A stretch of DNA of 36,326 bases, taken from Acidobacteriota bacterium. Lineage in GTDB: Bacteria; Acidobacteriota; UBA4820; DSQY01. The notes below the pieces were generated by a model. The model was not told where the DNA came from. It saw only the letters and a list, made by a program, of their open reading frames with translations, and searched no databases. The DNA lies in NCBI GenBank assembly GCA_037440125.1, contig JBBIUU010000003.1, positions 27,266 to 63,591 on the forward strand, in the 5' to 3' direction. The number at the start of each line of letters is the position of its first letter. The first letter of the stretch is position 1. Both the position numbers and the translations under genes were made by a program. Positions 28 to 24,223 of the stretch are shown here, piece after piece.

Positions 28-44
28 CTGGCACTTCCTTTGCT
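28..44 (+). promoter_or_regulatory. sigma54 (-24/-12) promoter upstream of the enhancer-binding protein-degP operon
   Basis: CTGGCACTTCCTTTGCT; GG at 30-31 and GC at 42-43 have the canonical 12-bp offset; 35 bp upstream of ATG 79, which has a GGGAGG RBS. Confidence 0.7.
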
Positions 45-78
45 TCTCTTGTATATTCTGGCAGGGAGGCGTGCCATT

Positions 79-1494
79 ATGGCGCAGGGTTCGGTTCTAA
101 TCTTCGAAGACGAGGCTGAGAACCTCCGCAGCCTCACCAAGGCGCTCGAGAAGGTGGGCTACGAGGTCAAGGGGTTCCAGAACCCCCGCGACGGCATGGC
201 GTACTTCGCCGCGCGGGGCGACATCGACCTCGTCCTGACGGACCTCCGCATGCCCGGGATGGACGGCATGGAGGTCCTCAAGCGCGTGAAGGAGAGCGAG
301 CCCTCCGTGGGCGTGCTCCTCATCACGGCCTTCGGCTCCGTGGAATCGGCCGTCCAGGCCATGAAGGTGGGGGCCGACGACTACCTCGCCAAGCCCGTGG
401 ATCTCTACGAGCTGCGGCGCCGCGTCCAGGCCCTCGTGGAGAAGCGCCGCCTCAAGAACGAGGTGGACGAGCTCAAGGCCAGGCTGGACGAGCGCTTCGG
501 TTTCGAGCACATCATCGGCAACTCCCGCCCCATGCGCGAGCTCTTCCAGCAGGTGAGGATGGCCGCCCCGACCAAGGTGACGGTCCTCATCCAGGGCGAG
601 TCGGGCACGGGCAAGGAGCTCATCGCCAACGCCATCCACCAGAACTCGGACCGCAAGCGGAGCCGCTTCCTCCCCATCAACTGCGCGGCCATCCCGGCCA
701 ACCTCATCGAGAGCGAGCTCTTCGGCCACGAGCGCGGCAGCTTCACGGGCGCCGAGAAGGCGCACCCCGGCAAGTTCGAGCAGGCCACCGGCGGCACCCT
801 CTTCCTGGACGAGATCGGCGAGCTCTCCCTGGACCTCCAGGCCAAGCTCCTGCGCGTCCTCGAGGAGCGCGTCGTGACGCGCGTCGGCGGGACGCAGCCC
901 ATCCACGTGGACGTGCGCATCGTGGCGGCCACGCACCGGGACCTCCTCCAGATGGTGGCGGAGGGGAAGTTCCGCGAGGACCTCATGTACCGGCTGAAGG
1001 TCGTGGAGCTGCGCATCCCGCCGCTCCGCGAGCGCCTCGAGGACATCCCCCTCCTCGTGCAGGCCTTCATCTCGCAGTTCGACCGCGAGCACGGGAAGGA
1101 TATCCAGGGCGTCTCGCCGGAGGTCCTCCGACTGCTCGCCGCATACCCGTGGCCAGGTAACGTCCGCGAGCTCCGCAACCTCGTGGAGCGCATGGTCATC
1201 TTCTGCACCGAGGAGGAGCTCCGCGTGGCCCACCTCCCCTACGACTTCAAGGCGGGAACCCTCCAGCCCGCGGCGGCCCAGATCGCGGGGGCGCCTGCGC
1301 CCCTGCGCCTCTCCGCGGCCGCGGACCCGGTCCAGGCCCTCGACGAGATGGAGCGCCAGGCCATCTACCGAGCGCTCCAGGAGACGGGGGGGAACAAGAC
1401 CCAGGCGGCCCGGATCCTCGGGATCGGGGTCCGCACCCTGCATCGCAAACTCAACGAGTACCGCACCCAAGATGAAGAAAGGAGCACCTCATGA
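79..1494 (+). CDS. sigma54-dependent two-component response regulator (NtrC/AtoC family: receiver, AAA+, Fis-type HTH)
   Basis: Receiver [14 protein letters not shown]; Walker A GESGTGKE; [15 protein letters not shown] loop; Walker B LFLDEIGE; WPGNVREL; [20 protein letters not shown]; ATG 79 follows GGGAGG. Confidence 0.95.
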
Positions 1495-3029
1495 AGATCG
1501 CGAAATGGATGATGCTCGCCGGCTTCGGCTGCCTGCTTGTCCTGGCCGGCTTCGGCCTGGCGCAGCTCAGGAACGTCAGCTCGCCCACCGCCCGCGCCGT
1601 AACGGCCTCGGCCCCCGCGGCCGTCTCCGGCGCCGCCGTGTCCGCGCCGGGCGCGCCGAGCTTCGCCGACATCGCCGAGAAGGTGAACCCCGCCGTGGTA
1701 GGCATCACCGCGATCAGCGTCGGCGGAAAGGGCGAGGGCGAGGACCAGGGCCCCGACCAGGGTCCCAACAACATGCCCGATCCCTTCGAGTTCTTCTTCG
1801 GCATGCCCCATCCGAACGTCCCCGGCGCACCCCGCGGCCAGAAGCCCGTCCAGGAGGCCGGCGGCTCGGGCTTCATCATCAGCACCGACGGCTACATCCT
1901 CACCAACAACCACGTGGTGGACGACGCCACCAAGGTGACGGTGAAGCTGAACGACGACCGCGAGTTCCCCGCCAAGATCGTGGGCACCGACAAGGAGACC
2001 GACGTGGCGCTCCTGAAGGTGGAGGCCTCGGGCCTGCCCACCCTGCCCCTCGGAGACAGCGACGCCATCCGCCAGGGCGACTGGGTCATGGCCGTGGGCA
2101 ACCCGCTCAACTACAACCACACCGTCACCGTGGGCGTAATCTCCGCCAAGGGCCGCCGCATCTCGAGCAGCTCCCTCGACGACTTCATCCAGACCGACGC
2201 GGCCATCAACTTCGGCAACTCGGGCGGCCCGCTCGTGAACGCGCGGGGCGAGGCCGTCGGCATCAACACCGCCATCACCCGCAACGACTACATGGGGCGC
2301 ATGGTCGAAGGCATCGGCTTCGCCATCCCCATCAACCTCGTGCGCGGCGAGATCGACCAGCTCAAGACCTCGGGCAAGGTGTCCCGCGGCTGGCTCGGCG
2401 TCTCCGTGGCCTCCGTGGACCCCGACGCCAAGAGCTACTACAAGAGCAAGTTCGGCGTGGACGTGAAGGGCGGCGCCCTCGTGCAGCGGGTGGAGGAGAA
2501 CTCCCCCTCGTCGAAGGCCGGCCTCCAGAAGGGCGACATCATCCTCGAGGTGGACGGCACCGAGCTCAAGGGCAGCCAGGAGCTCGTGCACAAGATCGCC
2601 GGCTATCCGCCGGGCCGCGCCGTCAACCTCCTCGTCCTCCGCGGGGGCGAGAAGAAGACCGTCAAGGTGACCCTGGGCGACCGCGCCAAGGCCATGAACG
2701 GCGAGGAGCCCGGCCAGGGCGGCAAGAACGAGGACGCCAACGAGACCAAGCTCGGCATCAAGGTCCAGAACCTCACCGCTCAGGTCCGTCAGATGTACCG
2801 CATCCCGCAGGAGATCACGGGCGTGGTGGTGGTGAGCGTGGAGCCCAAGTCCAACGCATACGCCAAGGGCATCCGCGAGGGCCTGATCATCTCCGAGCTC
2901 AACGGCCAGACGATCAAGAGCGTGGACGACTACCGCAAGGCCAGCGCCGGCGTGAAGCCGGGCGACCCCGTGAGCATCTACATCCAGGACGGCCAGGGCG
3001 GCACGTACCTCTACTTCCGGGCCGACTGA
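1491..3029 (+). CDS. degP: DegP/DegQ (HtrA, Do family) periplasmic serine endoprotease with two PDZ domains
   Basis: N-terminal hydrophobic signal; TNNHVV, DVALLKV and [15 protein letters not shown] catalytic motifs; two PDZ-like regions; ATGA overlap with upstream gene. Confidence 0.9.
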
Positions 3030-15303: not shown

Positions 15304-16352
15304 ACAGCGGCCGCGTCGCGTCCGCCCTCACCGCGATCTGCCCCTCGAAAACTCCCGGCTTCGCGTGGAGCGTCACGGACGCTTCGGGGCGCCGCCTCGC
15401 TTGGGGTTGCCAGGGGAGCGCGGTGGTGGACCCCATCCGGCAGCCGGTCGGCGAAGACACGCTCTTCGACCTGGCCTCCCTCACCAAACCCCTCGTCACC
15501 GCGGCCCTCGCCCTCCAGGCCGCCGACCGCGGCGAGCTGGACCTTGAGGCGCCCGTGGCCGGGACGGGCTTCACGCCCCTCCAGCTCCTCCGGCACGAGG
15601 CGGGCTTCCCCGCCTGGCGGCCGCTCTACGCCTTCGCCCGCGACCGCGAGGGAGCGAGGCGCTGGCTCCTCCTCGGGTGCCCGAGGGAGGAGCCGGGGTG
15701 CAGGACCGAATACACCTGCCTGGGCTACATCCTTCTCGGGTTCCTCTTGGAGGAGTTCTTGCATGCCCCGCTGTCCGGCCTCTTCGCCGAGCGCCTCGCG
15801 GCGCCTCTCGGGCTGAAGCCCGAGGACGCGTGCTTCTCGCCTTCGGAGAGCCTTAGAGCCCGTGTGGCGGCCACCGAGCGAGGGCCCCTCCACGAGGACG
15901 GATTGGCGCGCCAATATGGCAGTGAGCCGCCGTCGTTCAGGGAACCGGCGGGCTGGGGGGAGGTCAATGACGGTAACGCGAGGATGCTCGGAGGCGCCGC
16001 GGGAAACGCCGGCCTCTTTGGGAACCTGCACGCCGTGGAGGGACTGGCCGCCGCGTTCAGGCCGGGGTCGGCCCTCCTCTCCGAGCGCGCGCTGCGCCTC
16101 GCGTGGGACGCCACGCCCGGTTTCCGGACGGCAGGCTGGAAGGCCGCCGGGACCCCCGGGTGGGCCGCGGGCGCGTGCCTCCCGCGGGGCGCCGTGGGCC
16201 ACGAGGGCTTCACGGGAACGGGCGTGTGGATGGAGCCGGGACGCGGCCGGACCTTCATCCTGTTGGCGAACCGGGTCCATCCGGTGCATCCTGAAGACGA
16301 CTTCGGCCCGGCGAGGGCGCACTTCCTCGCCGCCGCGAGGGAGCTGAGTTGA
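15288..16352 (+). CDS. serine hydrolase (beta-lactamase/AmpC-like fold)
   Basis: FDLASLTK (SxxK), LLRHEAG, EYTCLGYILLG, AGNAGLF and VGHEGFTGT motifs; start uncertain. Confidence 0.8.
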   Translation: MHGDLNSGRVASALTAICPSKTPGFAWSVTDASGRRLAWGCQGSAVVDPIRQPVGEDTLFDLASLTKPLVTAALALQAADRGELDLEAPVAGTGFTPLQLLRHEAGFPAWRPLYAFARDREGARRWLLLGCPREEPGCRTEYTCLGYILLGFLLEEFLHAPLSGLFAERLAAPLGLKPEDACFSPSESLRARVAATERGPLHEDGLARQYGSEPPSFREPAGWGEVNDGNARMLGGAAGNAGLFGNLHAVEGLAAAFRPGSALLSERALRLAWDATPGFRTAGWKAAGTPGWAAGACLPRGAVGHEGFTGTGVWMEPGRGRTFILLANRVHPVHPEDDFGPARAHFLAAARELS

Positions 16353-17401
16353 CGGAACGCTGGACCCACGCCACGGCCTTCGGCATCGCCGTGGTGCTGC
16401 ACCTCCTCTTGCTGGTCTTCGCCTCGAGGCAGTACTACGCCTCCGCGGCTCGCCCGCAGATGCTGAACCAGGCGGTGCGGCGCCTGGACCAGATCAACGG
16501 CCAGCCCGTCCGGTTCATCTACGTCAAGGACATGGTCCCGAGCAAGCTGCCGCCCATGGATCCCTCGCGCCTGAGCGACGTGAACCGGCGCGGCGCGAGC
16601 CCCGACCCGCGCAAGGGTAGCTCTCCCGATCCGACCATGAAGGGGGGCATCGCGACGCGGCAACTGGGAGGCCCGGGCGACGCACCCGTCACGCGTCCCA
16701 CGGTCATGCCCTCCCCCGCATCCCCGCCTCCGGAACCCGGCCGACCGGGCGCGGGCGAGGACCAGAGCGAGGCCCGACAGGCCTCTCGCCCCGCCTCCCA
16801 GCAGAACCGCGCCGGACGAAGCGCCAAGCCCTCAAGCAACACCGAAGCCAAGCCCGGCGCAGGCCAGGGGGTCCTGTCTACAGGGAAGCCCGAGAACGCC
16901 CAGGCGGGCCTCCCCGTGGGCGGCGAGGAGCAGGCCATGGCCTCCTCCAGCCCCGGGTCCTCCGGGCAACGGCCCGTTCCGCCGAGGCCGGGCGTGGGCG
17001 CCGCCCTCCAGCAGATGATGACGGGCAGCCTCCAGGGCGGGTATTCGAACCCGAACGCGAGCCGGCTCAACACGGGGTCGCTCTCCTTCGACACCGCCGG
17101 CTGGGACCTCGGGCCCTACGCCCGCAAGGTCCAGGAGCGCGTTCAGAGCAACTGGCACATCCCCGAGGCGCAGCAGGTCCTCAGGCAGCGCGGCTGGGTC
17201 GCGATCCACTTCAACGTGCACAAGGACGGCTCCATCACCGACCTGCAGGTGGTGCGTCCTTCGGGCATCCCCTCCTACGACCAGTCCGCCATCGACGCCC
17301 TGCGCTCCTCGAACCCCCTGCCGCCGCTCCCTGCGGAGGTCACCGTCCCTCAGATCTCCGGATTGTTCCGCTTCTACTACAACATGCACGACGACGAGTA
17401 G
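16349..17401 (+). CDS. TonB family energy-transducer-like protein (TM anchor, Pro-rich linker, TonB/TolA C-terminal domain)
   Basis: N-terminal TM with His (AVVLHLLLL); Pro/Gly/Ser-rich spacer; C-domain VQSNW..VAIHFNVHKDGSI..SGIPSYDQSAIDAL..PLPPLP. Confidence 0.8.
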   Translation: MTERWTHATAFGIAVVLHLLLLVFASRQYYASAARPQMLNQAVRRLDQINGQPVRFIYVKDMVPSKLPPMDPSRLSDVNRRGASPDPRKGSSPDPTMKGGIATRQLGGPGDAPVTRPTVMPSPASPPPEPGRPGAGEDQSEARQASRPASQQNRAGRSAKPSSNTEAKPGAGQGVLSTGKPENAQAGLPVGGEEQAMASSSPGSSGQRPVPPRPGVGAALQQMMTGSLQGGYSNPNASRLNTGSLSFDTAGWDLGPYARKVQERVQSNWHIPEAQQVLRQRGWVAIHFNVHKDGSITDLQVVRPSGIPSYDQSAIDALRSSNPLPPLPAEVTVPQISGLFRFYYNMHDDE

Positions 17402-17404
17402 GAC

Positions 17405-17536
17405 CTTTCCCGCCTTTCCCCCTTCGGCCTCCGCCCTTCCCCCATTTGCCCTTTGCCTCTCGCCTTCGTTTCCGAATTCCGCCTTCCGAATTTCGAATTG
17501 AAGCATCATTTTCCGCCTTTCGCCTTTCGCCTTCCC
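17405..17536. repeat. degenerate heptamer tandem repeat (TTTCGCC / TTCCGAA family)
   Basis: CCTTTCG- and TTCCGAA-like units; exact 22-bp CGCCTTCGTTTCCGAATTCCGC shared with 31499-31520. Confidence 0.7.
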
Positions 17537-17537
17537 G

Positions 17538-17554
17538 TTGGCATCCGCATTGCA
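17538..17554 (+). promoter_or_regulatory. sigma54 promoter 1 (candidate sRNA1)
   Basis: TTGGCATCCGCATTGCA; GG 17540-41 and GC 17552-53 at 12-bp offset. Confidence 0.75.
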
Positions 17555-17564
17555 TATATCTTGG

Positions 17565-17613
17565 TCTCATCCCCCTCCATTCCTCCATTGGCCCCGGTTT
17601 GGGGCTCTTTTTT
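17565..17613 (+). ncRNA. candidate sigma54-dependent small RNA 1 (~50 nt, C/U-rich seed plus terminator)
   Basis: Lies between sigma54 promoter 1 and the terminator GCCCC-GGTTT-GGGGC-TCTTTTTT; contains CCCCCTCCATTCCTCC; no ORF. Confidence 0.6.
17590..17613 (+). terminator. intrinsic terminator of candidate sRNA1 (may also end the upstream operon transcript)
   Basis: GGCCCC GGTTT GGGGCT stem followed by CTTTTTT. Confidence 0.7.
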
Positions 17614-17748
17614 GTTCATTTTCAAGCAGTTGCGCCGATTGACGCCTCTGGGACATTAAGGACTCAAAAGCCACAACGGGTGACCAAAGGGGGCACATGC
17701 TCGCTCGGGTCTGCCAGATTGTCCGGTTTTCTCGGGCGTTGAACTCCG

Positions 17749-17761
17749 CAACTCATTGATT
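17749..17761 (-). promoter_or_regulatory. IHF binding site
   Basis: Minus strand AATCAA-TGAG-TTG matches WATCAA-N4-TTR exactly, ~16 bp upstream of sigma54 promoter 2; a one-mismatch site TTTCAAGCAGTTG is at 17620-17632. Confidence 0.6.
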
Positions 17762-17776
17762 TCATTCAGCAAGCCG

Positions 17777-17793
17777 TTGGCACGCCCATTGCT
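17777..17793 (+). promoter_or_regulatory. sigma54 promoter 2 (candidate sRNA2)
   Basis: TTGGCACGCCCATTGCT matches the consensus TGGCACG-N4-TTGCW exactly. Confidence 0.85.
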
Positions 17794-17803
17794 CATCGTC
17801 AGG

Positions 17804-17860
17804 CGGTAGAACACCCCTCCCATTCCTCTGCGGGGGCCTCGCGGCCCCCGCCCTTCTTTT
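17804..17860 (+). ncRNA. candidate sigma54-dependent small RNA 2 (~57 nt, C/U-rich seed plus terminator)
   Basis: Lies between sigma54 promoter 2 and a 9-bp terminator stem; contains CCCCTCCCATTCCTC (13/15 identical to the sRNA1 motif). Confidence 0.65.
17830..17860 (+). terminator. intrinsic terminator of candidate sRNA2
   Basis: GCGGGGGCC-TCGC-GGCCCCCGC followed by CCTTCTTTT. Confidence 0.75.
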
Positions 17861-17873
17861 GCTCCTGCGAGCG

Positions 17874-17902
17874 TTGACAGCCAACGGGTGCACCCGTAGA
17901 CT
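17874..17902 (+). promoter_or_regulatory. sigma70 promoter of the pseudokinase-TonB gene with a palindrome in the spacer
   Basis: TTGACA-17 bp-TAGACT; perfect palindrome ACGGGTGCACCCGT at 17884-17897. Confidence 0.7.
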
Positions 17903-17923
17903 TTGCGCAAGAGAGGGGGCCCC

Positions 17924-19846
17924 ATGTCTCAGAACTGCCTTGGTTCATACATCCTGGGAAATCCGCTCGGTTCGGCGGCCCTGGGCGATCTCGTCCGCGC
18001 CCTTCCCTTCGAGGGGACGCCCGTCATCAGGCTCGTCCAATCCCTGCCCGCATCTTTCGCCAAGCACCCCGACGCGGCGGCCCTCTTGCAGCGCAACGCA
18101 CGGCAGTGGATGTCGGTCCGCGACCTCCACACCCTGAGCCTCGTGGCCCTCGAGCAGGACGGTGACGCGCCCTTCCTGGTCTATGAATACCAGCAGGGCC
18201 GACTCCTCTCCGACATCCTCGCCCGCTGCCACCAGGAAGGGCTCCCGCTGAGCGCTGACCAGGCCGTCTACATCGCCGAGAGGCTCGCGGGCGCCCTCCT
18301 CTCCGTGTCCGCTTCCGGCACCGCCTACGGATGCCTTACCGCACAGAGCGTGCTCGTCACCTTCGAGGGCGAGGTCAAGCTGCTCCCGGGCGCCTTTCGA
18401 GATCTGCACACCACCTCCCTCTCAGCCGACCCGTCGCTCCAGGACTACCGCCGTGGGCTGCCCCCGGGCCTGGGCGCCGACAAGGCCACGCGCCTGTCGG
18501 CCGACCGCTACGCCCTCGGCGCGCTGATGTTCGAGCTCCTCTCCCGCGAGCCCTTCCGGACCTCCGACGGCGCGTTCGACGCCGCGGCCCGCATCTCCGC
18601 GGCGAGGGCCGGCGAGTGCGGCCTGGAACCCGTGCCCGAGGCGCTCACGGCCATCCTGCAGCGGGCGTGCGTGCTCGAGTCCTCCGAAGCCTACGAGGAC
18701 CTCGCGGCGATGAAGGCGGACCTCGACCAGCTCATCGCCTCGGGCGAGTACAGCCCCACGACCTTCAACATCGCCTTCCTGATGCACACGCTCTTCCGCG
18801 GCGAAGATGAGGCGGACACGGCGGCGGACCAGTCCTTCCTCTCGGTGGACCGGGAGAGCTTCAAGCCCGCTCCGCCGCCTCCGCCTCCGCCGGCACCCGT
18901 CGTCGAGGCGTCCCGGCCGGCGCCGAAGCCGGCGCCGCCCCGCGAGGAGCCCGCACCCACCTTTGGGATGCTCGAGGAGGAGCCCCCGCCCAGCCGGAAG
19001 GGGCTCATCATCGGCCTCGCGGCGGCCGCGGGCATCGTGGCCATCGTCGTGCTCTCCTACTTCGCCTTCTTCCGCGAGAAGGGCCCGTCGCAGGCCGAGA
19101 TCGCCGCGAAGGAGCAGCTCGCGAAGATGCTGAAGGATCAGCAGGAGATGACCGTGCGGATGAAGGCACTCGAGGACGAGCGGGCCTCCCTCGCGAGCCA
19201 GGTCGCGAACGCGAAGACCACTGAGGAGAAGCAGAAGGCGCAGAAGGCTCTCGAGGACACGCAGAAGAAGCTCCAGGCCCAGAAGGAGGAGCAGAAGCGG
19301 CTCGCCGACCAGACCGCCGCAGCGGCCGCCGCGGCGCCCGCGCCCACCGAGAAGGCCCCGGCGCCCGCCCCGGCGCAGGTCGCCGAGAAGGCCCCACCTC
19401 CGGCGACGCCGCCGGCCCCGGGCACCACGCCATCCGCTGCGCCCGCCACCCAGCCCTCCCCCGAGAAGTCCGCTCCGGCGCCCTCCTCGCCCGCGCCGGC
19501 CCAACCACCAGCACCCTCCGGGGCGCCGGCCTCGGAGGCCGCCGTGAAGCCCGGTGATTTCGTGGAGATGTGGGGCCTGGACGTGAAGCCGAAACAGATC
19601 AGCGACCTTCGCGTGAGCCCGCCCTCGGCCGCCGTCTCCCAGCACCTCACGGGCACCGTCTACGTCGAAGTGCAGATCGACGAGACCGGCAAGGTGACCG
19701 CCGCGAAGGTCGTGAAGGGGCTCGGCTCCGACTTCGGCCTCAACGCCGCGTGCGAGGAGGCCGCCATGAGGCTCAAGTTCAGCCCGGGCATCAGCAAGGG
19801 CGTGCCCGTGAAGACGAAGATGACCTTCCCCATCCTGTTCAAGTAG
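17924..19846 (+). CDS. membrane protein with N-terminal degenerate Ser/Thr kinase-like domain, TM, coiled coil, Pro/Ala linker and TonB C-terminal domain
   Basis: Kinase-fold remnants (LGSYILGNPLG, FLVYEYQQGRLL, YGCLTAQSVLVTFEGEVKLL, ADRYALGALMFELLS); TM GLIIGLAAAAGIVAIVVLSYFAFF; TonB_C GTVYVEVQIDETGKVTAAKVVKG..ACEEAAMRLKFSPG..GVPV. Confidence 0.8.
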   Translation: MSQNCLGSYILGNPLGSAALGDLVRALPFEGTPVIRLVQSLPASFAKHPDAAALLQRNARQWMSVRDLHTLSLVALEQDGDAPFLVYEYQQGRLLSDILARCHQEGLPLSADQAVYIAERLAGALLSVSASGTAYGCLTAQSVLVTFEGEVKLLPGAFRDLHTTSLSADPSLQDYRRGLPPGLGADKATRLSADRYALGALMFELLSREPFRTSDGAFDAAARISAARAGECGLEPVPEALTAILQRACVLESSEAYEDLAAMKADLDQLIASGEYSPTTFNIAFLMHTLFRGEDEADTAADQSFLSVDRESFKPAPPPPPPPAPVVEASRPAPKPAPPREEPAPTFGMLEEEPPPSRKGLIIGLAAAAGIVAIVVLSYFAFFREKGPSQAEIAAKEQLAKMLKDQQEMTVRMKALEDERASLASQVANAKTTEEKQKAQKALEDTQKKLQAQKEEQKRLADQTAAAAAAAPAPTEKAPAPAPAQVAEKAPPPATPPAPGTTPSAAPATQPSPEKSAPAPSSPAPAQPPAPSGAPASEAAVKPGDFVEMWGLDVKPKQISDLRVSPPSAAVSQHLTGTVYVEVQIDETGKVTAAKVVKGLGSDFGLNAACEEAAMRLKFSPGISKGVPVKTKMTFPILFK

Positions 19847-20077
19847 GCTCGGCGCCTCCGGCGTCGGAAGCTCGGGGATTCAGCGGGCGGCCCTCTCCGG
19901 GCCGGCCCACCCCGGACCACTTCGAAGGGTACCGCCGGGGGCTCCTTGGAACCAAGACCCGGGCTGTTCCCCGAAGGCCGACCCCAGAGAATCAGCGGGC
20001 CTGCACATGCATCCCCTGCCCGACTACCGACGCCGCGAGGGCCGATGCATCGAGGGGCCACAGGCTCCACCCAATAG

Positions 20078-20105
20078 CTAAAGGGAGGGGCCGGAGCCCC
20101 TCCCT
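20078..20105 (-). terminator. putative terminator of the PKD-repeat gene
   Basis: AGGGAGGGGC-CGGA-GCCCCTCCCT 10-bp stem followed by TTTAG on the minus strand, ~30 bp after the stop. Confidence 0.6.
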
Positions 20106-20133
20106 CGGGAGTTTCAGATGTCGAGCGGGCCGC

Positions 20134-23100
20134 TCAACGGACCACGGTGGCTCCGTTCGAGAGGCCGCCCGTGGGGTTCAACACCTGCACCGTGACGGGC
20201 ACGCCCTTGGGGAGCATGGCCTTCAGGAGCGCGTCGCCCTTGGCCATCATCATGGTCGTGCTCCTGAACTCGCTCAGGGGTGCGGCCTGGCCGTTGATGA
20301 GGACGATGGCGCCGGGCATGAAGCCGGAGCCGAAGACCTTGATGCGGAGGGGGGACGTGGCGATCTTGGCGTCACTCACGATGGGGTTGCTGAGCGTGAT
20401 GGTGATGGGCGTGGTCTGGGCCGACCTGCCCAGGGAGTCGACCACCATGGCGTAGACCGACAGGGAGCCGTTGTATCCCGTGCTGTCCCAGACGAAGGTG
20501 TAGGGCGCGCTCGTGGCGACGCCGATGGCGACGCCGTTGGCGTAGTACACCACCCTGAGCACGGGCACGTTGTCGTAGACCGTGCTCTGGAAGGTGACCG
20601 AGGCGCCGTAGGTGCCGCCGTCCACCGGCGAGGTCATGGCGATGGAGGGCGCCTGGAGGACGTTGATTTGGAGGTGCGAATCGGTCGCCGTGTAGACCTT
20701 CCCGCAGGCGTCCGCCGCCGTCACGGTGAGCGTCACGGTGTAGGTTCCCGCCGTCTGGTAGAGGTGGTTCGGGTGCGAGCCCGTGTCGGACGCGCTCCCA
20801 TCGCCGAAGTCCCAGCTGTAGGTGAAGGGGCCCGCGCTCCCGCTGACGGACGACGAGAAGTTGACCAGGAGCGGCACGAGGCCCGACGTCGCGTCGGCCG
20901 AGGCGAAGGCCTGCAGGTTCATCATCGCCGCCGCGTGGATGACCGCGTTCGCCGAGCCCACGTTGCCGAGGGAGTCGGTGGCCGTGAGGATCACCGTGAA
21001 GTCGCCCGCCGACAGGAAGTTGTGGCAGGGCTTCTGGTCGGGGCTCACGGGCGAGCCGTCGCCGAAGCTCCAGGAGTAGATGTAGGGAGGGACGCCGCCT
21101 GTGGCCGAGGGGTCGAAGCACACGTTCAGGGGCGCGGTCCCGCACGTGGCGCTCGCCCCGAGGCTGGGCACCACGGGGGCGTAGGCGTTGACGGTCAGGG
21201 TGCCCGTCTGGGAGTGGCCGCAGCCGTCGTTGACCGTGAGAACCGCGTCGTAGGTTCCCGCGGCCGTGTAGGTGTGCTGCGCGGAGCTCGAGGGCACGGC
21301 GTTGGAGCCGTCCCCGAAGTCCCACGAATAAGTGTAGGGCTGGGTGCCGCCCGTCACGGCGCTCGCGAAGTTCACCGTGAGGGGCGCGGGGCCTGTGGTG
21401 CTGGGCAGACCCGTCACCGCCACGATCATCTGGGCCGTGGTGGTGATGGTCACCGTGCCCGACCCGATGCGTCCGACATGGTCGGTCACGGTGAGGGTGG
21501 CGGTGAAGGGCCCGATGGAGAGGTAGCTGTGGGACGGGTTCGCCAGGGTGCTCGTACCCCCGTCCCCGAAGGACCACGCGTAGGTGAGCGGCGGAACGCC
21601 GCCGACCACGTTGCCGGTGAAGGCCACGTTGAGCGGCGCGTAGCCGCAGGTGACATCGGCGGCCGGCGTGACGGTCACGGGCCCGTAGGAGTCGATGGGC
21701 AGGTGCGCCACCACCTGGTGGCCGCAGCTGTCGGAGACCGTCAGGGTGACGTCGTACTGCCCCGCGAGCCACGTGTGCTGGTCCGACGGGCTGTTGCTGT
21801 TGGGGCTGCCGTCCTGGAAGTTCCAGTCGTAGGTGTAGGGCGGCGTGCCTCCCGCGACGGTGCTCGAGACGTTCACCGTCAGGGGCGAGGGGCCCGCCGT
21901 GGCGGGCAGGCCGTGGGCCGTCACGGTCAGCTCGGGGGTCACGCTGACGTCTACGGTGCCCGTCCCCGTGTGGCCGAGGGAGTCGGTGACGGTGAGCGAT
22001 GCGGTGTAGGTGCCCACGGCGAGGTAGCTGTGGCTCGGGTTCGGCAGGGTGTCGGTGCCACCGTCGCCAAAGGCCCAGGCATAGGTGTAGGGCGGGACGC
22101 CGCCGGTGGTGCCGCCCGTGAAGATGACGTTGAGGGGCGCGTAGCCGCAGGCGAAATTCACCGTCGGCGTCGGCGTCACGGGCCCGTAGGCGTTGATGGG
22201 CAGCGTGGCGGACTGGGTCTGGCCGCAGCTGTCGGTCACCGTGAGGACCACGTCGTAGGTCCCGGGCGCGGCCCACGTGTGCTGGTCCGCCGGGCTCACG
22301 CTGTGCTCGCTCCCGTCGGCGAAGTCCCAGTCGTAGGTGTAGGGCGGCAGGCCGCCGGTGGCTGTGCCGGAGACATCGACGGTCAGCGGTGCGGGTCCGA
22401 CCGTCGCCGGCAGGCCCTGGACAGCGACCGAAAGGGGCGTGATCACCTTGACGTCCACCGACGTCGTGCCCGAGACGCCGAGCGCGTCGGTGGCGGTGAG
22501 GTGGGCCGTATAGGTGCCCGCGGCCAGGTAGCTGTGGCTTGGGCTCTGCTGGGTGCTCGTCTGGCCGTCGCCGAAGTCCCACGCCCAGGTGAAGGGCGGC
22601 TTCCCGCCCACCGCACCGCCCGTGAAAATGACGTTCAGCGGGGCGACGCCGCAGGGTTGGTTCACCGACGCCGTGGCGTTCACCGGATAGACCACGATGA
22701 AGATCGAGCTGTTCGAGGCCGTCGACGACGGGGTGCAGCCGTCGGTGACCGTGAGCTTCACGTTGTAGTAGCCCGGCTGGAAGACGTGGAGGGGGTTGAC
22801 GACGGTGTCGGTCGTCCCGTCACCGAAGTCCCACGCGTAGGTGAAGGGGCTCGTACCGCCCGTGACGGAGCTCGTGAAGTAGGCCGTGAAGGGCGCGTAG
22901 CCGCTGGTGCGGCTGACGCTCGTCACCACCGACAGCGGGTCGGTGATGGACACGATGATGTGGCTGTCCACGCTCGTGTGGGCGGCGGCGTCCGTCACCG
23001 TCATGGCCACCGTGTAGTCGCCCGCGGCCGCGTAAACGTGGCAGGGTGCCTGACCGGCGACCACGGGGCTCCCGTCGCCGAAATTCCACGAGTACGTGTA

Positions 23101-24114
23101 CGGCGGCGTGCCGCCGATGGCGGTCCCGGCGAAGCAAGCGTTCGTCCCGGCGGGACCGCAGAGGCGGTCCACCGTGGCCGTGCCCGCCAGGGCGCCGGGC
23201 ACCACTTTGATCACGAGGTGCGTGTCGGTGACGACGGTGGGCGGCTCGCACGAATCGGTCACCGTGAGGGTGACGTGGTAGGTTCCCGGATCGTTGTAGC
23301 CGTGCTGGGTGGCCCAGTCGTAGCACAGCGCCGAGCCGTCGCCGAAGTCCCAGACGTAGGAGTAGGGCGGCATGCCTCCCGACACGAACCCGCAACCGGA
23401 GTTGAACTGGACGAGGAGCGGGGCCGGGCCGTTGGTGGGCGTGACGCACGGCGTCACGGTCAGCGGGGTGGTCGTGATCTCGATGGAACCCACACCCGTG
23501 TTCCCGTCGCTGTCCACGACCTGGCACGTGACCAGGTAGTAGGTGTTCGGCGTGGTGAACGTGTGGCACGGCTGCGGGTCCTGGAAGTTCGGCGCGGGGT
23601 AGGTGCCGTCGCCGAAGTCCCAGTTATAGCTGTACGGTGGCGTGCCGGCCGGGACCGCAGCGAAGCAGACGTTGAGGTAGGCCTCGCCGCAGGTGGTGTT
23701 GGCGGTGATGTCCACGGGCAGCAGGACCACGATCGGCCCGAGAGTGTCCGTCCCCGTGAGCCCGTTGGCGTCCACGACGAGGACGCTGACCATGTACGAT
23801 CCCGGTGCGCCGTAGGTGTACTGCGGGTTCTGGGTGGCGCCGGCCCCGCCGTCACCGAAGTCCCAGGTCCACGTGTAGGGGAGCGTGCCGCCGGCAACCG
23901 TCGAGGTGAAGTTCACCGTCAGCGGTGCCGTGCCCGACGTGGGTGCGGCCGAGGCGTTGACCGTGAGCTGGGCCATGGCCGGCACCGATTGGAGCGCAAA
24001 GGCCGCGCCGACCAGGACGAGCACCGTCCACAGCAACGCCCGGAACGCGGGCTTGGCGACGCCGGCGGTACGAGGCCTCTGAACTCCACCAGCCAGAGGT
24101 TGGGTTCCAGACAT
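20134..24114 (-). CDS. large secreted/surface protein with 13 PKD domains, one bacterial Ig-like domain and a C-terminal IPT/TIG-like domain
   Basis: ATG 24114 after AAGGAGG; signal peptide ending AMA-Q; 13 W[DNSA]F[GAQ]DG motifs with GxYxVxLTVTD; Ig-like TSPVDGGTY..SAPYTFVWD. Confidence 0.88.
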   Translation of the reverse strand: MSGTQPLAGGVQRPRTAGVAKPAFRALLWTVLVLVGAAFALQSVPAMAQLTVNASAAPTSGTAPLTVNFTSTVAGGTLPYTWTWDFGDGGAGATQNPQYTYGAPGSYMVSVLVVDANGLTGTDTLGPIVVLLPVDITANTTCGEAYLNVCFAAVPAGTPPYSYNWDFGDGTYPAPNFQDPQPCHTFTTPNTYYLVTCQVVDSDGNTGVGSIEITTTPLTVTPCVTPTNGPAPLLVQFNSGCGFVSGGMPPYSYVWDFGDGSALCYDWATQHGYNDPGTYHVTLTVTDSCEPPTVVTDTHLVIKVVPGALAGTATVDRLCGPAGTNACFAGTAIGGTPPYTYSWNFGDGSPVVAGQAPCHVYAAAGDYTVAMTVTDAAAHTSVDSHIIVSITDPLSVVTSVSRTSGYAPFTAYFTSSVTGGTSPFTYAWDFGDGTTDTVVNPLHVFQPGYYNVKLTVTDGCTPSSTASNSSIFIVVYPVNATASVNQPCGVAPLNVIFTGGAVGGKPPFTWAWDFGDGQTSTQQSPSHSYLAAGTYTAHLTATDALGVSGTTSVDVKVITPLSVAVQGLPATVGPAPLTVDVSGTATGGLPPYTYDWDFADGSEHSVSPADQHTWAAPGTYDVVLTVTDSCGQTQSATLPINAYGPVTPTPTVNFACGYAPLNVIFTGGTTGGVPPYTYAWAFGDGGTDTLPNPSHSYLAVGTYTASLTVTDSLGHTGTGTVDVSVTPELTVTAHGLPATAGPSPLTVNVSSTVAGGTPPYTYDWNFQDGSPNSNSPSDQHTWLAGQYDVTLTVSDSCGHQVVAHLPIDSYGPVTVTPAADVTCGYAPLNVAFTGNVVGGVPPLTYAWSFGDGGTSTLANPSHSYLSIGPFTATLTVTDHVGRIGSGTVTITTTAQMIVAVTGLPSTTGPAPLTVNFASAVTGGTQPYTYSWDFGDGSNAVPSSSAQHTYTAAGTYDAVLTVNDGCGHSQTGTLTVNAYAPVVPSLGASATCGTAPLNVCFDPSATGGVPPYIYSWSFGDGSPVSPDQKPCHNFLSAGDFTVILTATDSLGNVGSANAVIHAAAMMNLQAFASADATSGLVPLLVNFSSSVSGSAGPFTYSWDFGDGSASDTGSHPNHLYQTAGTYTVTLTVTAADACGKVYTATDSHLQINVLQAPSIAMTSPVDGGTYGASVTFQSTVYDNVPVLRVVYYANGVAIGVATSAPYTFVWDSTGYNGSLSVYAMVVDSLGRSAQTTPITITLSNPIVSDAKIATSPLRIKVFGSGFMPGAIVLINGQAAPLSEFRSTTMMMAKGDALLKAMLPKGVPVTVQVLNPTGGLSNGATVVR

Positions 24115-24223
24115 GCCACCCTCCTTCTTCTGGGACATCCGCATACGACGAAGACTCGCCCCCCGGGCGATTATTTGACTGAAATCTCCGCAGTTTGACC
24201 CCAAATCTCTAACCACATTTCCC

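What the first reader, a model, noticed from the sequence alone, without database searches (positions are those of the whole stretch)
17538..17860. Tandem pair of candidate sigma54-driven sibling small RNAs with a shared anti-Shine-Dalgarno-like seed
Seen in sequence: this ORF-free gap holds the same three-part unit twice, 239 bp apart. (1) A sigma54 promoter, CCGTTGGCA-N5-ATTGC (17538-54 and 17777-93; the second is a perfect TGGCACG-N4-TTGCT). (2) A short transcribed stretch with a conserved pyrimidine motif (CCCCCTCCATTCCTC vs CCCCTCCCATTCCTC, 13/15 identical). (3) A GC stem plus U-tract terminator. The two terminator stems differ in sequence while promoter and seed are conserved, which suggests selection on function rather than recent duplication. 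Established knowledge: sigma54-dependent sRNAs exist (Vibrio Qrr1-5, enterobacterial GlmY, myxobacterial Pxr), and CU-rich anti-SD sibling sRNAs exist (alphaproteobacterial cuckoo RNAs, Listeria LhrC). Inference: these are ~50 and ~57 nt trans-acting sRNAs that pair with GGAGG-type ribosome binding sites. I do not recognise them as a named family.
Basis: partly seen in the sequence, partly recalled or inferred. Interest (0 to 1): 0.85.

Follow-up and report, generated by a model that had tools for sequence, protein, structure and literature searches.

The report
Paired sigma54-driven small RNAs, Acidobacteriota
Two neighbouring short genes for regulatory RNAs, each with its own sigma-54 promoter, a pyrimidine-rich pairing stretch and a terminator, are conserved across one family of Acidobacteriota and probably shut off translation of a TonB-dependent outer-membrane receptor.

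Summary
The gap 17539-17860 holds two units, 239 bp apart, each made of TGGCA-N6-TTGC, a single-stranded CCUCC-rich stretch, and a hairpin with a U tract. The genome has rpoN, Hfq and about 24 enhancer-binding proteins.

Covariance models find copy 1 in 25 of 25 genomes of the family (6 genera) and copy 2 in 23 of 25. Only weak hits appear in 145 other genomes of the phylum. Conservation starts where a sigma54 transcript should start, and the promoter spacers vary. The copy-2 hairpin shows compensatory changes. Flanking genes differ between genera, so the pair is an independent unit. Rfam has no match.

New lead: sRNA1 is complementary in three blocks to the ribosome-binding site and start codon of one conserved TonB-dependent receptor gene. 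That site is unique in the genome and found only in this family.

No expression data could be obtained. Generic target energies do not discriminate.

Verdict: a new sRNA family of a known kind. Real genes about 0.85; anti-SD pairing about 0.6; the receptor as target about 0.5.

The parts
17539..17553 (+). Promoter P1, sigma54 type (TGGCAT-N5-TTGC; GG at 17540-41, GC at 17552-53)
   Evidence: The TGGCA and TTGC boxes are invariant and the spacer varies in 15 aligned species.
17564..17613 (+). sRNA1, about 49-50 nt. The 5' end is inferred from the promoter geometry (+1 near 17564/17565). The 3' end is the U tract.
   Evidence: Model R1 gives 62.4 bits here and at least 42.3 bits in 25 of 25 family genomes. 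Fold.
17564..17586 (+). sRNA1 pairing stretch. Block A is GUCUCAU (17564-17570), block B is CCCUCCAU (17573-17580) and block C is CCUCC (17582-17586).
   Evidence: Unpaired in the fold. CCCTCCAT is the near-invariant core in the 25 genomes aligned (all but one row, which is misaligned). The three blocks pair with the receptor's translation start region.
17590..17613 (+). sRNA1 terminator: hairpin 17590-17606 and U tract 17608-17613
   Evidence: In relatives 93.7% of cells are paired, but there is no covariation because the core never varies.
17749..17761 (+). CAACTCATTGATT, a site that resembles the IHF consensus (consensus recalled from memory), at -55 to -43 of P2. A candidate DNA-bending site.
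   Evidence: Partly conserved (AAC..T.TGAT) in the 6 same-genus genomes. Resemblance only.
17778..17792 (+). Promoter P2, sigma54 type (TGGCAC-N5-TTGC)
   Evidence: Boxes are invariant in 15 species.
17804..17860 (+). sRNA2, about 57 nt. The 5' end is inferred from the promoter geometry.
   Evidence: Model R2 gives 73.5 bits here and at least 33 bits in 23 of 25 family genomes.
17814..17828 (+). sRNA2 pyrimidine-rich pairing stretch, CCCCUCCCAUUCCUC
   Evidence: Unpaired in the centroid fold. Conserved as a C/U-rich tract with genus-specific variants.
17830..17860 (+). sRNA2 terminator: 9-bp hairpin 17830-17851 and tail CCUUCUUUU
   Evidence: In relatives 100% of cells are paired and 3 of 9 pairs show changes on both sides; 0 of 500 shuffles reach the covariation score.
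17874..17902 (+). Sigma70-like promoter (TTGACA-17-TAGACT) of the downstream gene (ATG at 17925). It is not part of the sRNAs and marks the end of the unit.
   Evidence: TTGACA is kept in same-genus genomes.

Best explanation
The gap holds two independent genes for short regulatory RNAs that are old paralogues.

How they are made: each is transcribed by RNA polymerase with sigma54, so each needs an ATP-driven enhancer-binding protein and is off by default. Each ends at its own intrinsic terminator. The products are about 50 nt (sRNA1) and about 57 nt (sRNA2).

What they look like: each RNA is a single-stranded 5' arm with two CCUCC-type motifs identical to the anti-Shine-Dalgarno core (as recalled), followed by one GC hairpin and a U tail that could bind Hfq.

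How they act: the arm pairs with GGAGG-type ribosome-binding sites and blocks translation initiation.

Likely target: for sRNA1 the best candidate for a core target is the mRNA of a 1017-aa TonB-dependent receptor (G000 contig C8). Its start region, GGAGG-UUAUGGAGG-UGAAGAU-AUGAGGC, pairs in three blocks (5, 8 and 7 bp) with sRNA1, covering an upstream SD-like box, the SD and the start codon.

Shown versus inferred:
- Shown by computation: the anatomy, the conservation, the hairpin covariation and the complementarity.
- Inferred: transcription, RpoN and activator dependence, Hfq use, pairing and repression.

Sub-odds: real sRNA genes 0.85; action by anti-SD pairing 0.6; this receptor as a direct sRNA1 target 0.5.
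For: Promoters:
- There are 2 of only 29 genomic TGGCA-N6-TTGC matches in one gap.
- Most of the other matches sit upstream of GGAGG plus a start codon (read by eye).
- rpoN is present, and 24 strong Sigma54_activat matches are found.

Conservation profile:
- In 15 species the boxes are invariant while the spacers and the -12 to +1 stretch vary.
- The transcribed part is conserved through to the U tract.

Distribution:
- R1 hits 25 of 25 family genomes at 42.3 bits or more, and R2 hits 23 of 25 at 33 bits or more.
- Sister families: 1 weak hit in 5 genomes. Other phylum genomes: 4 weak hits (26.5-27.6 bits) in 140.
- 14 of 75 pattern matches among species-representative genomes are real, and all 14 are Acidobacteria MAGs.
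- 13 of 36 pattern matches in metagenomes are real.

Structure:
- The seeds are unpaired.
- The sRNA2 hairpin is 100% paired with 3 compensatory pairs.
- Loops are GNRA or UUCG type in most species outside the window's own genus, whose sRNA1 loops differ (read).

Independence: the upstream gene is kept in 4 genera and the downstream gene differs between genera. The downstream gene has its own sigma70-like promoter.

Hfq is present.

Target:
- The receptor has CarboxypepD_reg, Plug and barrel domains.
- Its start region is nearly invariant in 19 genomes of 5 genera.
- The three-block motif occurs once in the own genome.
- It occurs in 21 of 25 family genomes, 0 of 5 sister-family genomes and 0 of 140 other phylum genomes.
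- sRNA1's best site on the 134-nt leader is -22 to +8 in 15 of 19 genomes.
- True seeds beat 300 composition-matched shuffles in all but 0-5 cases, in each of 6 genomes.

Matched changes between sRNA and mRNA:
- All 5 genomes of genus g4 have AGAGG in the mRNA and CCUCU in sRNA1. Genus g1 has GGAGG with CCUCC, and 3 of the 4 g6 genomes have GGAGG with CCUCU (a G-U pair); G014 has CCUCA.
- G014 has AUGAGA in the mRNA with UUCUCA in sRNA1, where its relatives have AUGAGG with UCCUCA.
Against: Expression: there is no expression evidence of any kind. No RNA run was listed, and all members are metagenome-assembled genomes.

Target energies are weak evidence:
- Duplex energies against 2190 predicted start regions barely differ from those of shuffled C-rich oligos. 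The means are -19.8 and -17.8 against -17.5 to -18.8.
- In the own genome the receptor site ranks only 91st of 2190 by energy.

Co-evolution is not statistically supported: cognate sRNA/mRNA genus pairings are not better than permuted ones (22 of 120 permutations do as well). The co-evolution argument therefore rests on two or three individual changes.

Genus g5 fits poorly: sRNA1's best site there is not the start region (0 of 3), and the 5' block fits poorly in G009 and G024.

Other weak points:
- The receptor hypothesis arose after looking at the top hits, so the enrichment test is post hoc.
- The conserved start region could be kept for translation efficiency alone.
- The sRNA1 hairpin shows no covariation.
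- The activator is unknown.
Confidence: 0.6

Rival explanations
1. They are real sigma54-driven small RNAs, but they act by binding or titrating a protein or another RNA (a sponge or decoy) rather than by blocking ribosome-binding sites on mRNAs.
For: Two repeated CCUCC motifs per RNA and two RNAs in tandem resemble multi-site decoy RNAs (recalled: CrcZ and RsmY/Z are built from repeated motifs, and CrcZ is sigma54-dependent). Generic target energies do not discriminate.
Against: No candidate protein that binds CCUCC is known to me. The 5' block of sRNA1 (CUCAU) has no role in such a model, yet it is conserved and complementary to a start codon region. The three-block match to one leader is unique in the genome.
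Confidence: 0.12
2. They are cis-acting leaders or attenuators. Sigma54 transcription starts here and is terminated or read through into the downstream gene.
For: Copy 2 ends 65 nt before the downstream start codon. That gene's ribosome-binding region (GAGAGGGGG) is complementary to the C-rich stretch.
Against: The downstream gene differs between genera: kinase-like, transporter-like or other. Copy 1 is followed by another promoter, not a gene. Both terminators are strong and conserved. The downstream gene has its own sigma70-like promoter, kept within the genus. No alternative antiterminator fold is seen.
Confidence: 0.05
3. They are conserved DNA-level elements that yield no stable functional RNA. 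Examples would be poised sigma54 holoenzyme sites, or promoter-plus-terminator insulators beside the TonB-like gene.
For: Sigma54 holoenzyme binds promoters stably without firing (established knowledge). P1 lies directly after the stop codon of the TonB-like gene in several genera.
Against: Conservation is strongest in the transcribed 25-nt arm rather than in the promoter spacer. Compensatory changes keep an RNA hairpin. Tetraloop-type loops point to RNA.
Confidence: 0.05
4. The conserved stretches encode a very small protein on either strand.
For: The minus strand reads GGAGG...ATG and opens an 82-codon frame (17340-17588).
Against: That frame has third-position GC of 0.42 in a genome where genes run near 0.9. 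It also runs through a tandem-repeat stretch that relatives lack. The plus strand has no ATG or GTG in the conserved arm. Conservation ends at the terminator.
Confidence: 0.02

Closest known systems
Pxr of Myxococcus and its tandem paralogues in Cystobacter (passages read in PMC5568312)
   Same: An intergenic sRNA with its own predicted sigma54 promoter. In Cystobacter, paralogues lie in tandem, each with its own sigma54 promoter. Restricted to one lineage.
   Different: Pxr is about 108 nt with two or three stem-loops and lies next to its activator gene nla19. Here the RNAs are about 50-57 nt with one hairpin, have a linear pyrimidine arm and no adjacent activator, and belong to another phylum. 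There is no sequence relation (no Rfam match).
Cuckoo RNAs / CcsR (RSs0680) and NfeR1-type alphaproteobacterial sRNAs (passages read in PMC4615179; NfeR1 seen in listings only)
   Same: Repeated anti-Shine-Dalgarno-like C/U motifs, sibling copies often clustered, and presumed occlusion of ribosome-binding sites.
   Different: In cuckoo RNAs the CCUCCUCCC motif sits in hairpin loops of 2-4 modules. Here the motifs lie in an unstructured 5' arm. The promoter type also differs (recalled: RpoHI/HII for CcsR), as does the phylum.
OmrA/OmrB of enterobacteria (recalled, not read here)
   Same: Two adjacent sibling sRNAs with a conserved 5' pairing end that repress outer-membrane proteins, including TonB-dependent receptors. 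This is the closest analogue to the circuit proposed here.
   Different: OmrA/B depend on OmpR and sigma70, are about 85 nt, and are not anti-SD mimics. They are not homologous.
Qrr1-5 of Vibrio and GlmY of enterobacteria (recalled)
   Same: Sigma54 plus an enhancer-binding protein drives small Hfq-type or decoy RNAs. Qrr RNAs are multi-copy siblings.
   Different: Different sequence, size, structure and targets. The Qrr genes are dispersed.
Rfam RF00519 suhB/MmgR (the only Rfam model with any score)
   Same: A short RNA with a CCUCCC stretch before a GC terminator. Copy 2 aligns end to end with the model.
   Different: The score is 14.9 bits against a gathering score of 41, with E = 2.2. Copy 1 does not hit. 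It is an alphaproteobacterial family. The resemblance is one of composition, not membership.

Membership tests
Any Rfam 15 family | Score at or above the family's gathering threshold | tested here: not met
   There are 0 matches in the window. In 15 related loci only 2 tRNAs match. With lax filters on 17380-17960 the best result is suhB/MmgR at 14.9 bits against 41.
Sigma54-dependent genes | -24 GG and -12 GC boxes with exact spacing (TGGCAC-N5-TTGC), conserved in relatives | tested here: met
   Boxes are invariant in 15 species. All pairs listed keep them; one copy in G014 reads TGGTAC.
Sigma54-dependent genes | The organism encodes RpoN and enhancer-binding activators | tested here: met
   RpoN DNA-binding domain at 211.5 bits. 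There are 24 strong Sigma54_activat matches.
Sigma54-dependent genes | Transcription lost without RpoN; a cognate activator and its upstream binding site identified | not testable with these tools
   Only candidate sites were seen: GGCAC/GTGCC palindromes 60-110 bp upstream of P2 in several genera and an IHF-like site in the own genus.
Trans-acting base-pairing sRNA (Hfq type) | A discrete short transcript with its own promoter and an intrinsic terminator | tested here: inconclusive
   Promoter and terminator are present and conserved. The transcript was not observed, because no RNA run was listed.
Trans-acting base-pairing sRNA (Hfq type) | A conserved, accessible seed | tested here: met
   Seeds are unpaired. 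The CCCTCCAT core is near-invariant in 25 genomes.
Trans-acting base-pairing sRNA (Hfq type) | A conserved complementary site in a target mRNA | tested here: met
   There is a three-block match to the receptor's start region in 19 genomes of 5 genera. The site is unique in the own genome. The statistics of co-evolution are weak.
Trans-acting base-pairing sRNA (Hfq type) | Hfq present in the organism | tested here: met
   Hfq family match at 64.9 bits. Binding was not tested.
Cuckoo RNA family | 2-4 adjacent hairpins, each carrying CCUCCUCCC in its loop | tested here: not met
   There is one hairpin only, the motifs lie outside it, and no CCUCCUCCC is present. The family definition comes from PMC4615179.
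Pxr family | An RNA of about 108 nt with multiple stem-loops, lying between nla19 and an NADH dehydrogenase gene | tested here: not met
   Size, fold and neighbours all differ. The definition comes from PMC5568312.

The most novel reading that the evidence does not exclude
The pair is a dedicated two-RNA switch, so far confined to one family of Acidobacteriota.
- An unknown enhancer-binding protein turns on both sRNAs through sigma54.
- Together they coat the unusual leader of one TonB-dependent receptor mRNA, which carries several GGAGG boxes.
- sRNA1 sits on the SD and start codon. sRNA2 sits on the invariant GAAAGGAGGUG box near the 5' end.
- Related receptor-like envelope proteins with a CarboxypepD_reg domain would be secondary targets.

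These would be the first riboregulators with a defined circuit in this phylum.
Probability: 0.3. Interest if true: 0.7.

Novelty: new member of a known kind. Interest (0 to 1): 0.58.

Why it matters
Acidobacteriota are among the most abundant bacteria in soils and sediments. Six full-text searches found no described base-pairing sRNA or sigma54-driven RNA in them.

- **A testable circuit.** The locus proposes the chain signal, activator, sigma54, sibling sRNAs, TonB-dependent receptor. Every nucleotide of the proposed pairing is specified.
- **An annotation tool.** The two covariance models can annotate the RNAs in genomes and metagenomes.
- **A parallel with enterobacteria.** Tandem sibling sRNAs that control outer-membrane receptors appear to have arisen independently of OmrA/B, here under sigma54 control. 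This fits the view that sigma54 governs the cell exterior (recalled: Francke et al. 2011).

Tried and rejected
1. Rfam. Gathering and lax modes on the window, and gathering mode on 15 related loci, gave nothing usable.

2. Expression. No RNA holder was listed for window 16900-18600.

3. Earlier findings of this scan.

4. Genome-wide target prediction by duplex energy.
- The first script timed out.
- The k-mer-seeded version ran, but its top sites are mostly inside coding regions.
- On 2190 heuristic start regions, the true seeds are hardly better than shuffled ones. The energy ranking was rejected as evidence.

5. Best own-genome site for sRNA1. This is the start region of a 955-aa VIT/vWA/PDZ lipoprotein on contig C74 (-43.9 kcal/mol, 22 bp). 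A full-length orthologue was found only in G010, and not in the 5 same-genus genomes. G010's site is weaker. It was kept only as a strain-specific candidate.

6. Cognate versus non-cognate genus pairings of sRNA1 and the receptor leader. Not significant: 22 of 120 permutations do as well.

7. Assigning the activator. There are about 24 candidates. The NtrC-type gene at window 40-1494 has its own sigma54 promoter but lies 17 kb away. No shared upstream motif was established, and in the own genome the palindromes seen in other genera are degenerate.

8. Extra weak R1 and R2 hits.
- G000 C40, 23 bits: a plain terminator after a gene.
- G000 C54 and C41, about 26 bits: not followed up.
- G027 and G037, 27-31 bits: G027 has no sigma54 box upstream; G037 was not inspected.

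9. Small-ORF and minus-strand readings. Rejected.

10. Gene calls. In some searches these are my own heuristic: ORFs of at least 90 codons, third-position GC of at least 0.8, and an SD-based start. Some starts are wrong.

11. Labels not checked by a tool. In the report, the names CysK-like and antitoxin-like for two of the four start-region matches are by eye, and the CarboxypepD_reg-like N-terminus of the 420-aa protein on C21 is by eye too. The NCBI titles are the only source for the taxon name.

12. Supplements of papers were not needed and were not opened.
Full report
**What is in the sequence**

The ORF-free gap between a TonB_C-domain gene (16349-17401) and a kinase-like/TonB_C gene (ATG at 17925) holds two like units on the plus strand.

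| | Unit 1 | Unit 2 |
|---|---|---|
| Promoter boxes | TGGCATCCGCATTGC, 17539-17553 | TGGCACGCCCATTGC, 17778-17792 |
| Pyrimidine arm | includes CCCCCUCCAUUCCUCC | includes CCCCUCCCAUUCCUC |
| Hairpin | 17590-17606 | 9 bp, 17830-17851 |
| Tail | CUUUUUU | CCUUCUUUU |

- The boxes are 239 bp apart.
- The window has 3 matches to TGGCA-N6-TTGC against 0.14 expected; 0 of 100 shuffles reach 3.
- The whole 3.22 Mb, 68% GC genome has 29 such matches on both strands. By eye, most of the others sit just upstream of a GGAGG and a start codon, as real sigma54 promoters would.
- The terminator scan finds only these two sites in 17000-18300.
- Folded as RNA, both units leave the pyrimidine arm unpaired and form only the terminator hairpin. 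sRNA2 has z = -2.6. sRNA1's short hairpin is no better than shuffles.
- If the C of the -12 GC is taken as -12, transcription would start near 17564/17565 and near 17804.

**The organism**

- The genome encodes RpoN, Hfq and 24 strong matches to the sigma54-interaction domain.
- Public contigs that carry the same units are titled Acidobacteria, Acidobacteriota or uncultured Thermoanaerobaculia MAGs. That is my only source for the taxon name.

**Conservation**

- BLAST against 40 relatives found both units in all 5 same-genus genomes and, more weakly, in other genera of the family.
- A strict promoter-plus-motif pattern, run over one genome per prokaryotic species, matched 75 stretches. Fourteen are real, meaning they have a hairpin and U tract, and all 14 are Acidobacteria MAGs. 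Ten hold both copies by the strict pattern. The other four hold a diverged second copy. The other 61 lack the hairpin and are chance matches.
- Alignments of 15 species show invariant TGGCA and TTGC boxes. The spacers and the stretch between -12 and +1 vary, and conservation then runs from about +1 to the U tract.
- I built two covariance models from the transcribed parts only.
- R1 finds sRNA1 in 25 of 25 genomes of the family (6 genera) at 42.3 bits or more.
- R2 finds sRNA2 in 23 of 25 at 33 bits or more. G014 truly lacks copy 2 at the locus. G017's copy 2 runs into a garbled contig end.
- In the two sister families of the class there is 1 weak hit in 5 genomes (31 bits; no sigma54 box upstream).
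- In a sample of 140 other genomes of the phylum there are 4 weak hits of 26.5-27.6 bits. One of the 140 genomes is flagged unpublished.
- In JGI metagenomes, 13 of 36 pattern matches are true sRNA1 copies, and 8 have sRNA2 beside them.
- The own genome has one strong copy of each RNA.

**Structure evidence**

- sRNA2 hairpin: all cells form standard pairs. Three of 9 pairs carry changes on both sides (G-C to A-U in 8 of 18 distinct sequences at one pair). None of 500 shuffles reaches the covariation score, and slid registers collapse to about 50% paired.
- sRNA1 hairpin: the core never varies, so it says nothing either way.
- Loops are GCAA, GAAA, GAGA or UUCG in most species outside the window's own genus, whose sRNA1 loops differ. 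These are typical stable RNA tetraloops (recalled).

**Independence from neighbours**

- The upstream TonB-like gene is kept in 4 of 6 genera.
- The downstream gene is kinase-like, transporter-like or something else, depending on the genus.
- In the own genus the downstream gene has its own TTGACA-17-TAGACT promoter.
- This argues against a leader or attenuator. Copy 1 is followed by a promoter, not by a gene.

**Regulatory DNA (weak evidence)**

- In the own genus, a CAACTCATTGATT-like site lies 43-55 bp upstream of the sRNA2 start (17749-17761). It resembles the IHF consensus as I recall it.
- In other genera, GGCAC/GTGCC palindromes lie 60-110 bp upstream of P2. These are candidate activator sites only.
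- I could not name the activator.
- The window's own NtrC-type gene (40-1494) has a sigma54 promoter at 29-43 and is followed by an HtrA-type protease. It is one of about 24 candidates.

**Target search: what failed**

- Energy-based scans are nearly useless in this G-rich genome. Against 2190 heuristic start regions, the true arms (means -19.8 and -17.8 kcal/mol) are scarcely better than shuffled C-rich oligos (means -17.5 to -18.8).
- The best single site for sRNA1 is the start region of a VIT/vWA lipoprotein on C74. It has a full-length orthologue in only one other genome of the family, G010.

**Target search: what held**

- Proteins with the same N-terminal CarboxypepD_reg domain ranked 1, 4, 24, 38, 91 and 1168 of 2190 for sRNA1. 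This test is post hoc.
- Following their orthologues across the family exposed one gene: a 1017-aa TonB-dependent receptor with CarboxypepD_reg, Plug and barrel domains (G000 C8:9125-12178, minus strand).
- Its translation start region is almost invariant in 19 genomes of 5 genera, while the leader on either side of it varies.
- In the own genome it reads CGGAGG-UU-AUGGAGGUG-AAGAU-AUGAGGC. It pairs with sRNA1 in three blocks:

| Block | sRNA1 | mRNA | Pairs |
|---|---|---|---|
| C | CCUCC, 17582-17586 | GGAGG | 5 bp |
| B | CCCUCCAU, 17573-17580 | AUGGAGG(U)G | 8 bp, one bulge |
| A | GUCUCAU, 17564-17570 | AUGAGGC (start codon and next four bases) | 7 bp, one G-U |

- The sRNA1 core CCCTCCAT is the near-invariant part of the RNA in the 25 genomes; one row is misaligned.
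- The three-block motif occurs once in the own genome.
- Written as a degenerate pattern, it occurs in 21 of 25 family genomes, 0 of 5 sister-family genomes and 0 of 140 other phylum genomes. That is the same distribution as the sRNAs. It is also what shared ancestry alone would give.
- Of the four family genomes without it, G004 (67%) and G017 (86%) are incomplete, G006 has the gene start at a contig end, and G013 (91% complete) had no match to the gene.
- sRNA1's best site on the 134-nt leader is -22 to +8 in 15 of 19 genomes. All three misses in g5 and one in g4 fall on an upstream GGAGG box.
- In six genomes, true arms beat 300 composition-matched shuffles in all but 0-5 cases.
- In genus g3 the duplex is nearly continuous, at -37 to -42 kcal/mol.

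**Matched changes between sRNA and mRNA**

- All five g4 genomes have AGAGG in the mRNA and CCUCU in sRNA1. Three of the four g6 genomes have GGAGG with CCUCU (a G-U pair); G014 has CCUCA. g1, g3 and g5 have GGAGG with CCUCC.
- G014 has AUGAGA with UUCUCA, where its nearest relatives have AUGAGG with UCCUCA.
- These read like compensated steps, but they are few.
- A genus-level permutation of cognate pairings is not significant (22 of 120).
- The 5' block fits poorly in two g5 genomes.
- I therefore put this receptor as a direct target at about even odds.

**Further hints**

- Eleven places in the own genome match blocks B+A. Four of them lie at plausible gene starts: the receptor; a 420-aa secreted protein whose N-terminus looks CarboxypepD_reg-like by eye; and two unrelated genes.
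- The receptor leader has a second invariant box, GAAAGGAGGUG, 65-75 nt upstream of the AUG.
- sRNA2's best duplex often falls on that box. This suggests, no more, that the two RNAs share one leader.

**Comparison with known systems**

- Nothing in Rfam 15 matches. The only score is 14.9 bits to suhB/MmgR against a threshold of 41.
- In working terms the closest systems are:
  - Pxr, which has a sigma54 promoter and tandem paralogues each with its own sigma54 promoter in Cystobacter (passages of PMC5568312).
  - The cuckoo/CcsR RNAs, which are siblings carrying anti-SD CCUCCUCCC motifs, but in hairpin loops (passages of PMC4615179).
  - OmrA/OmrB, adjacent siblings that repress TonB-dependent receptors (recalled).
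- The locus meets none of their family definitions.
- Six full-text searches found no described sRNA of this kind in Acidobacteria. Subscription journals are outside that library.

**Verdict**

- These are very probably genuine sigma54-dependent sibling sRNA genes that form a new, family-restricted RNA family of a known functional kind.
- The proposed mechanism is anti-SD pairing, with a TonB-dependent receptor leader as the prime candidate. It is specific and testable, but unproven.

Noticed in passing
window 17404-17533: Short tandem repeats lie directly upstream of P1: CCTTTCCC x2.5, TTCCGAA x4.3 and CGCCTTT x2.9. Similar low-complexity stretches match dozens of other intergenic places in this genome and in same-genus genomes, but not the orthologous gap in relatives. 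This looks like a genus-specific dispersed repeat class of unknown nature.
   Followed up: partly
window 29-3029: A consensus sigma54 promoter (29-43) precedes an NtrC-type response-regulator activator (40-1494), followed directly by an HtrA/DegP-type protease (1491-3029). Downstream lies an outer-membrane biogenesis cluster with BamA, Skp, LpxD and FabZ. This may be an envelope-related sigma54 circuit. No link to the sRNAs was shown.
   Followed up: partly
L129 (G001), L131 (G003), L132 (G005): Three same-genus genomes carry a third, weaker R1-like element (28-33 bits) right after a stop codon: CCUCCAUCCCUCC plus a terminator, with no sigma54 box. It may be a 3'UTR-derived relative of the sRNAs. 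It was not found in the window's genome.
   Followed up: no
L204 3279-3390 minus strand (G000 C8, leader of the TonB-dependent receptor): The receptor leader has a TTGACA-17-TACCCT promoter-like site and up to four GGAGG-type boxes. One is an invariant GAAAGGAGGUG 65-75 nt upstream of the AUG in all 19 genomes aligned. sRNA2's best duplex often lies on that box.
   Followed up: partly
G000 C74:8038-8061 (L137): The start region of a 955-aa lipoprotein (CarboxypepD_reg, VIT, vWA, PDZ) forms a 22-bp duplex with sRNA1 (-43.9 kcal/mol), the best non-self site in the genome. A full-length orthologue was found in only one other family genome, G010.
   Followed up: yes
L133 (G027, sister family, about 45% GC): A 51-nt element, UUUUCAACCUUCCUCCACACCUC plus hairpin and U tract, scores 31 bits with R1 but has no sigma54 box upstream. 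It may be a distant relative under another promoter, or a chance match.
   Followed up: no
window 19570-24198: A 1542-aa open frame downstream of the kinase-like gene has no Pfam match at E <= 0.001.
   Followed up: no
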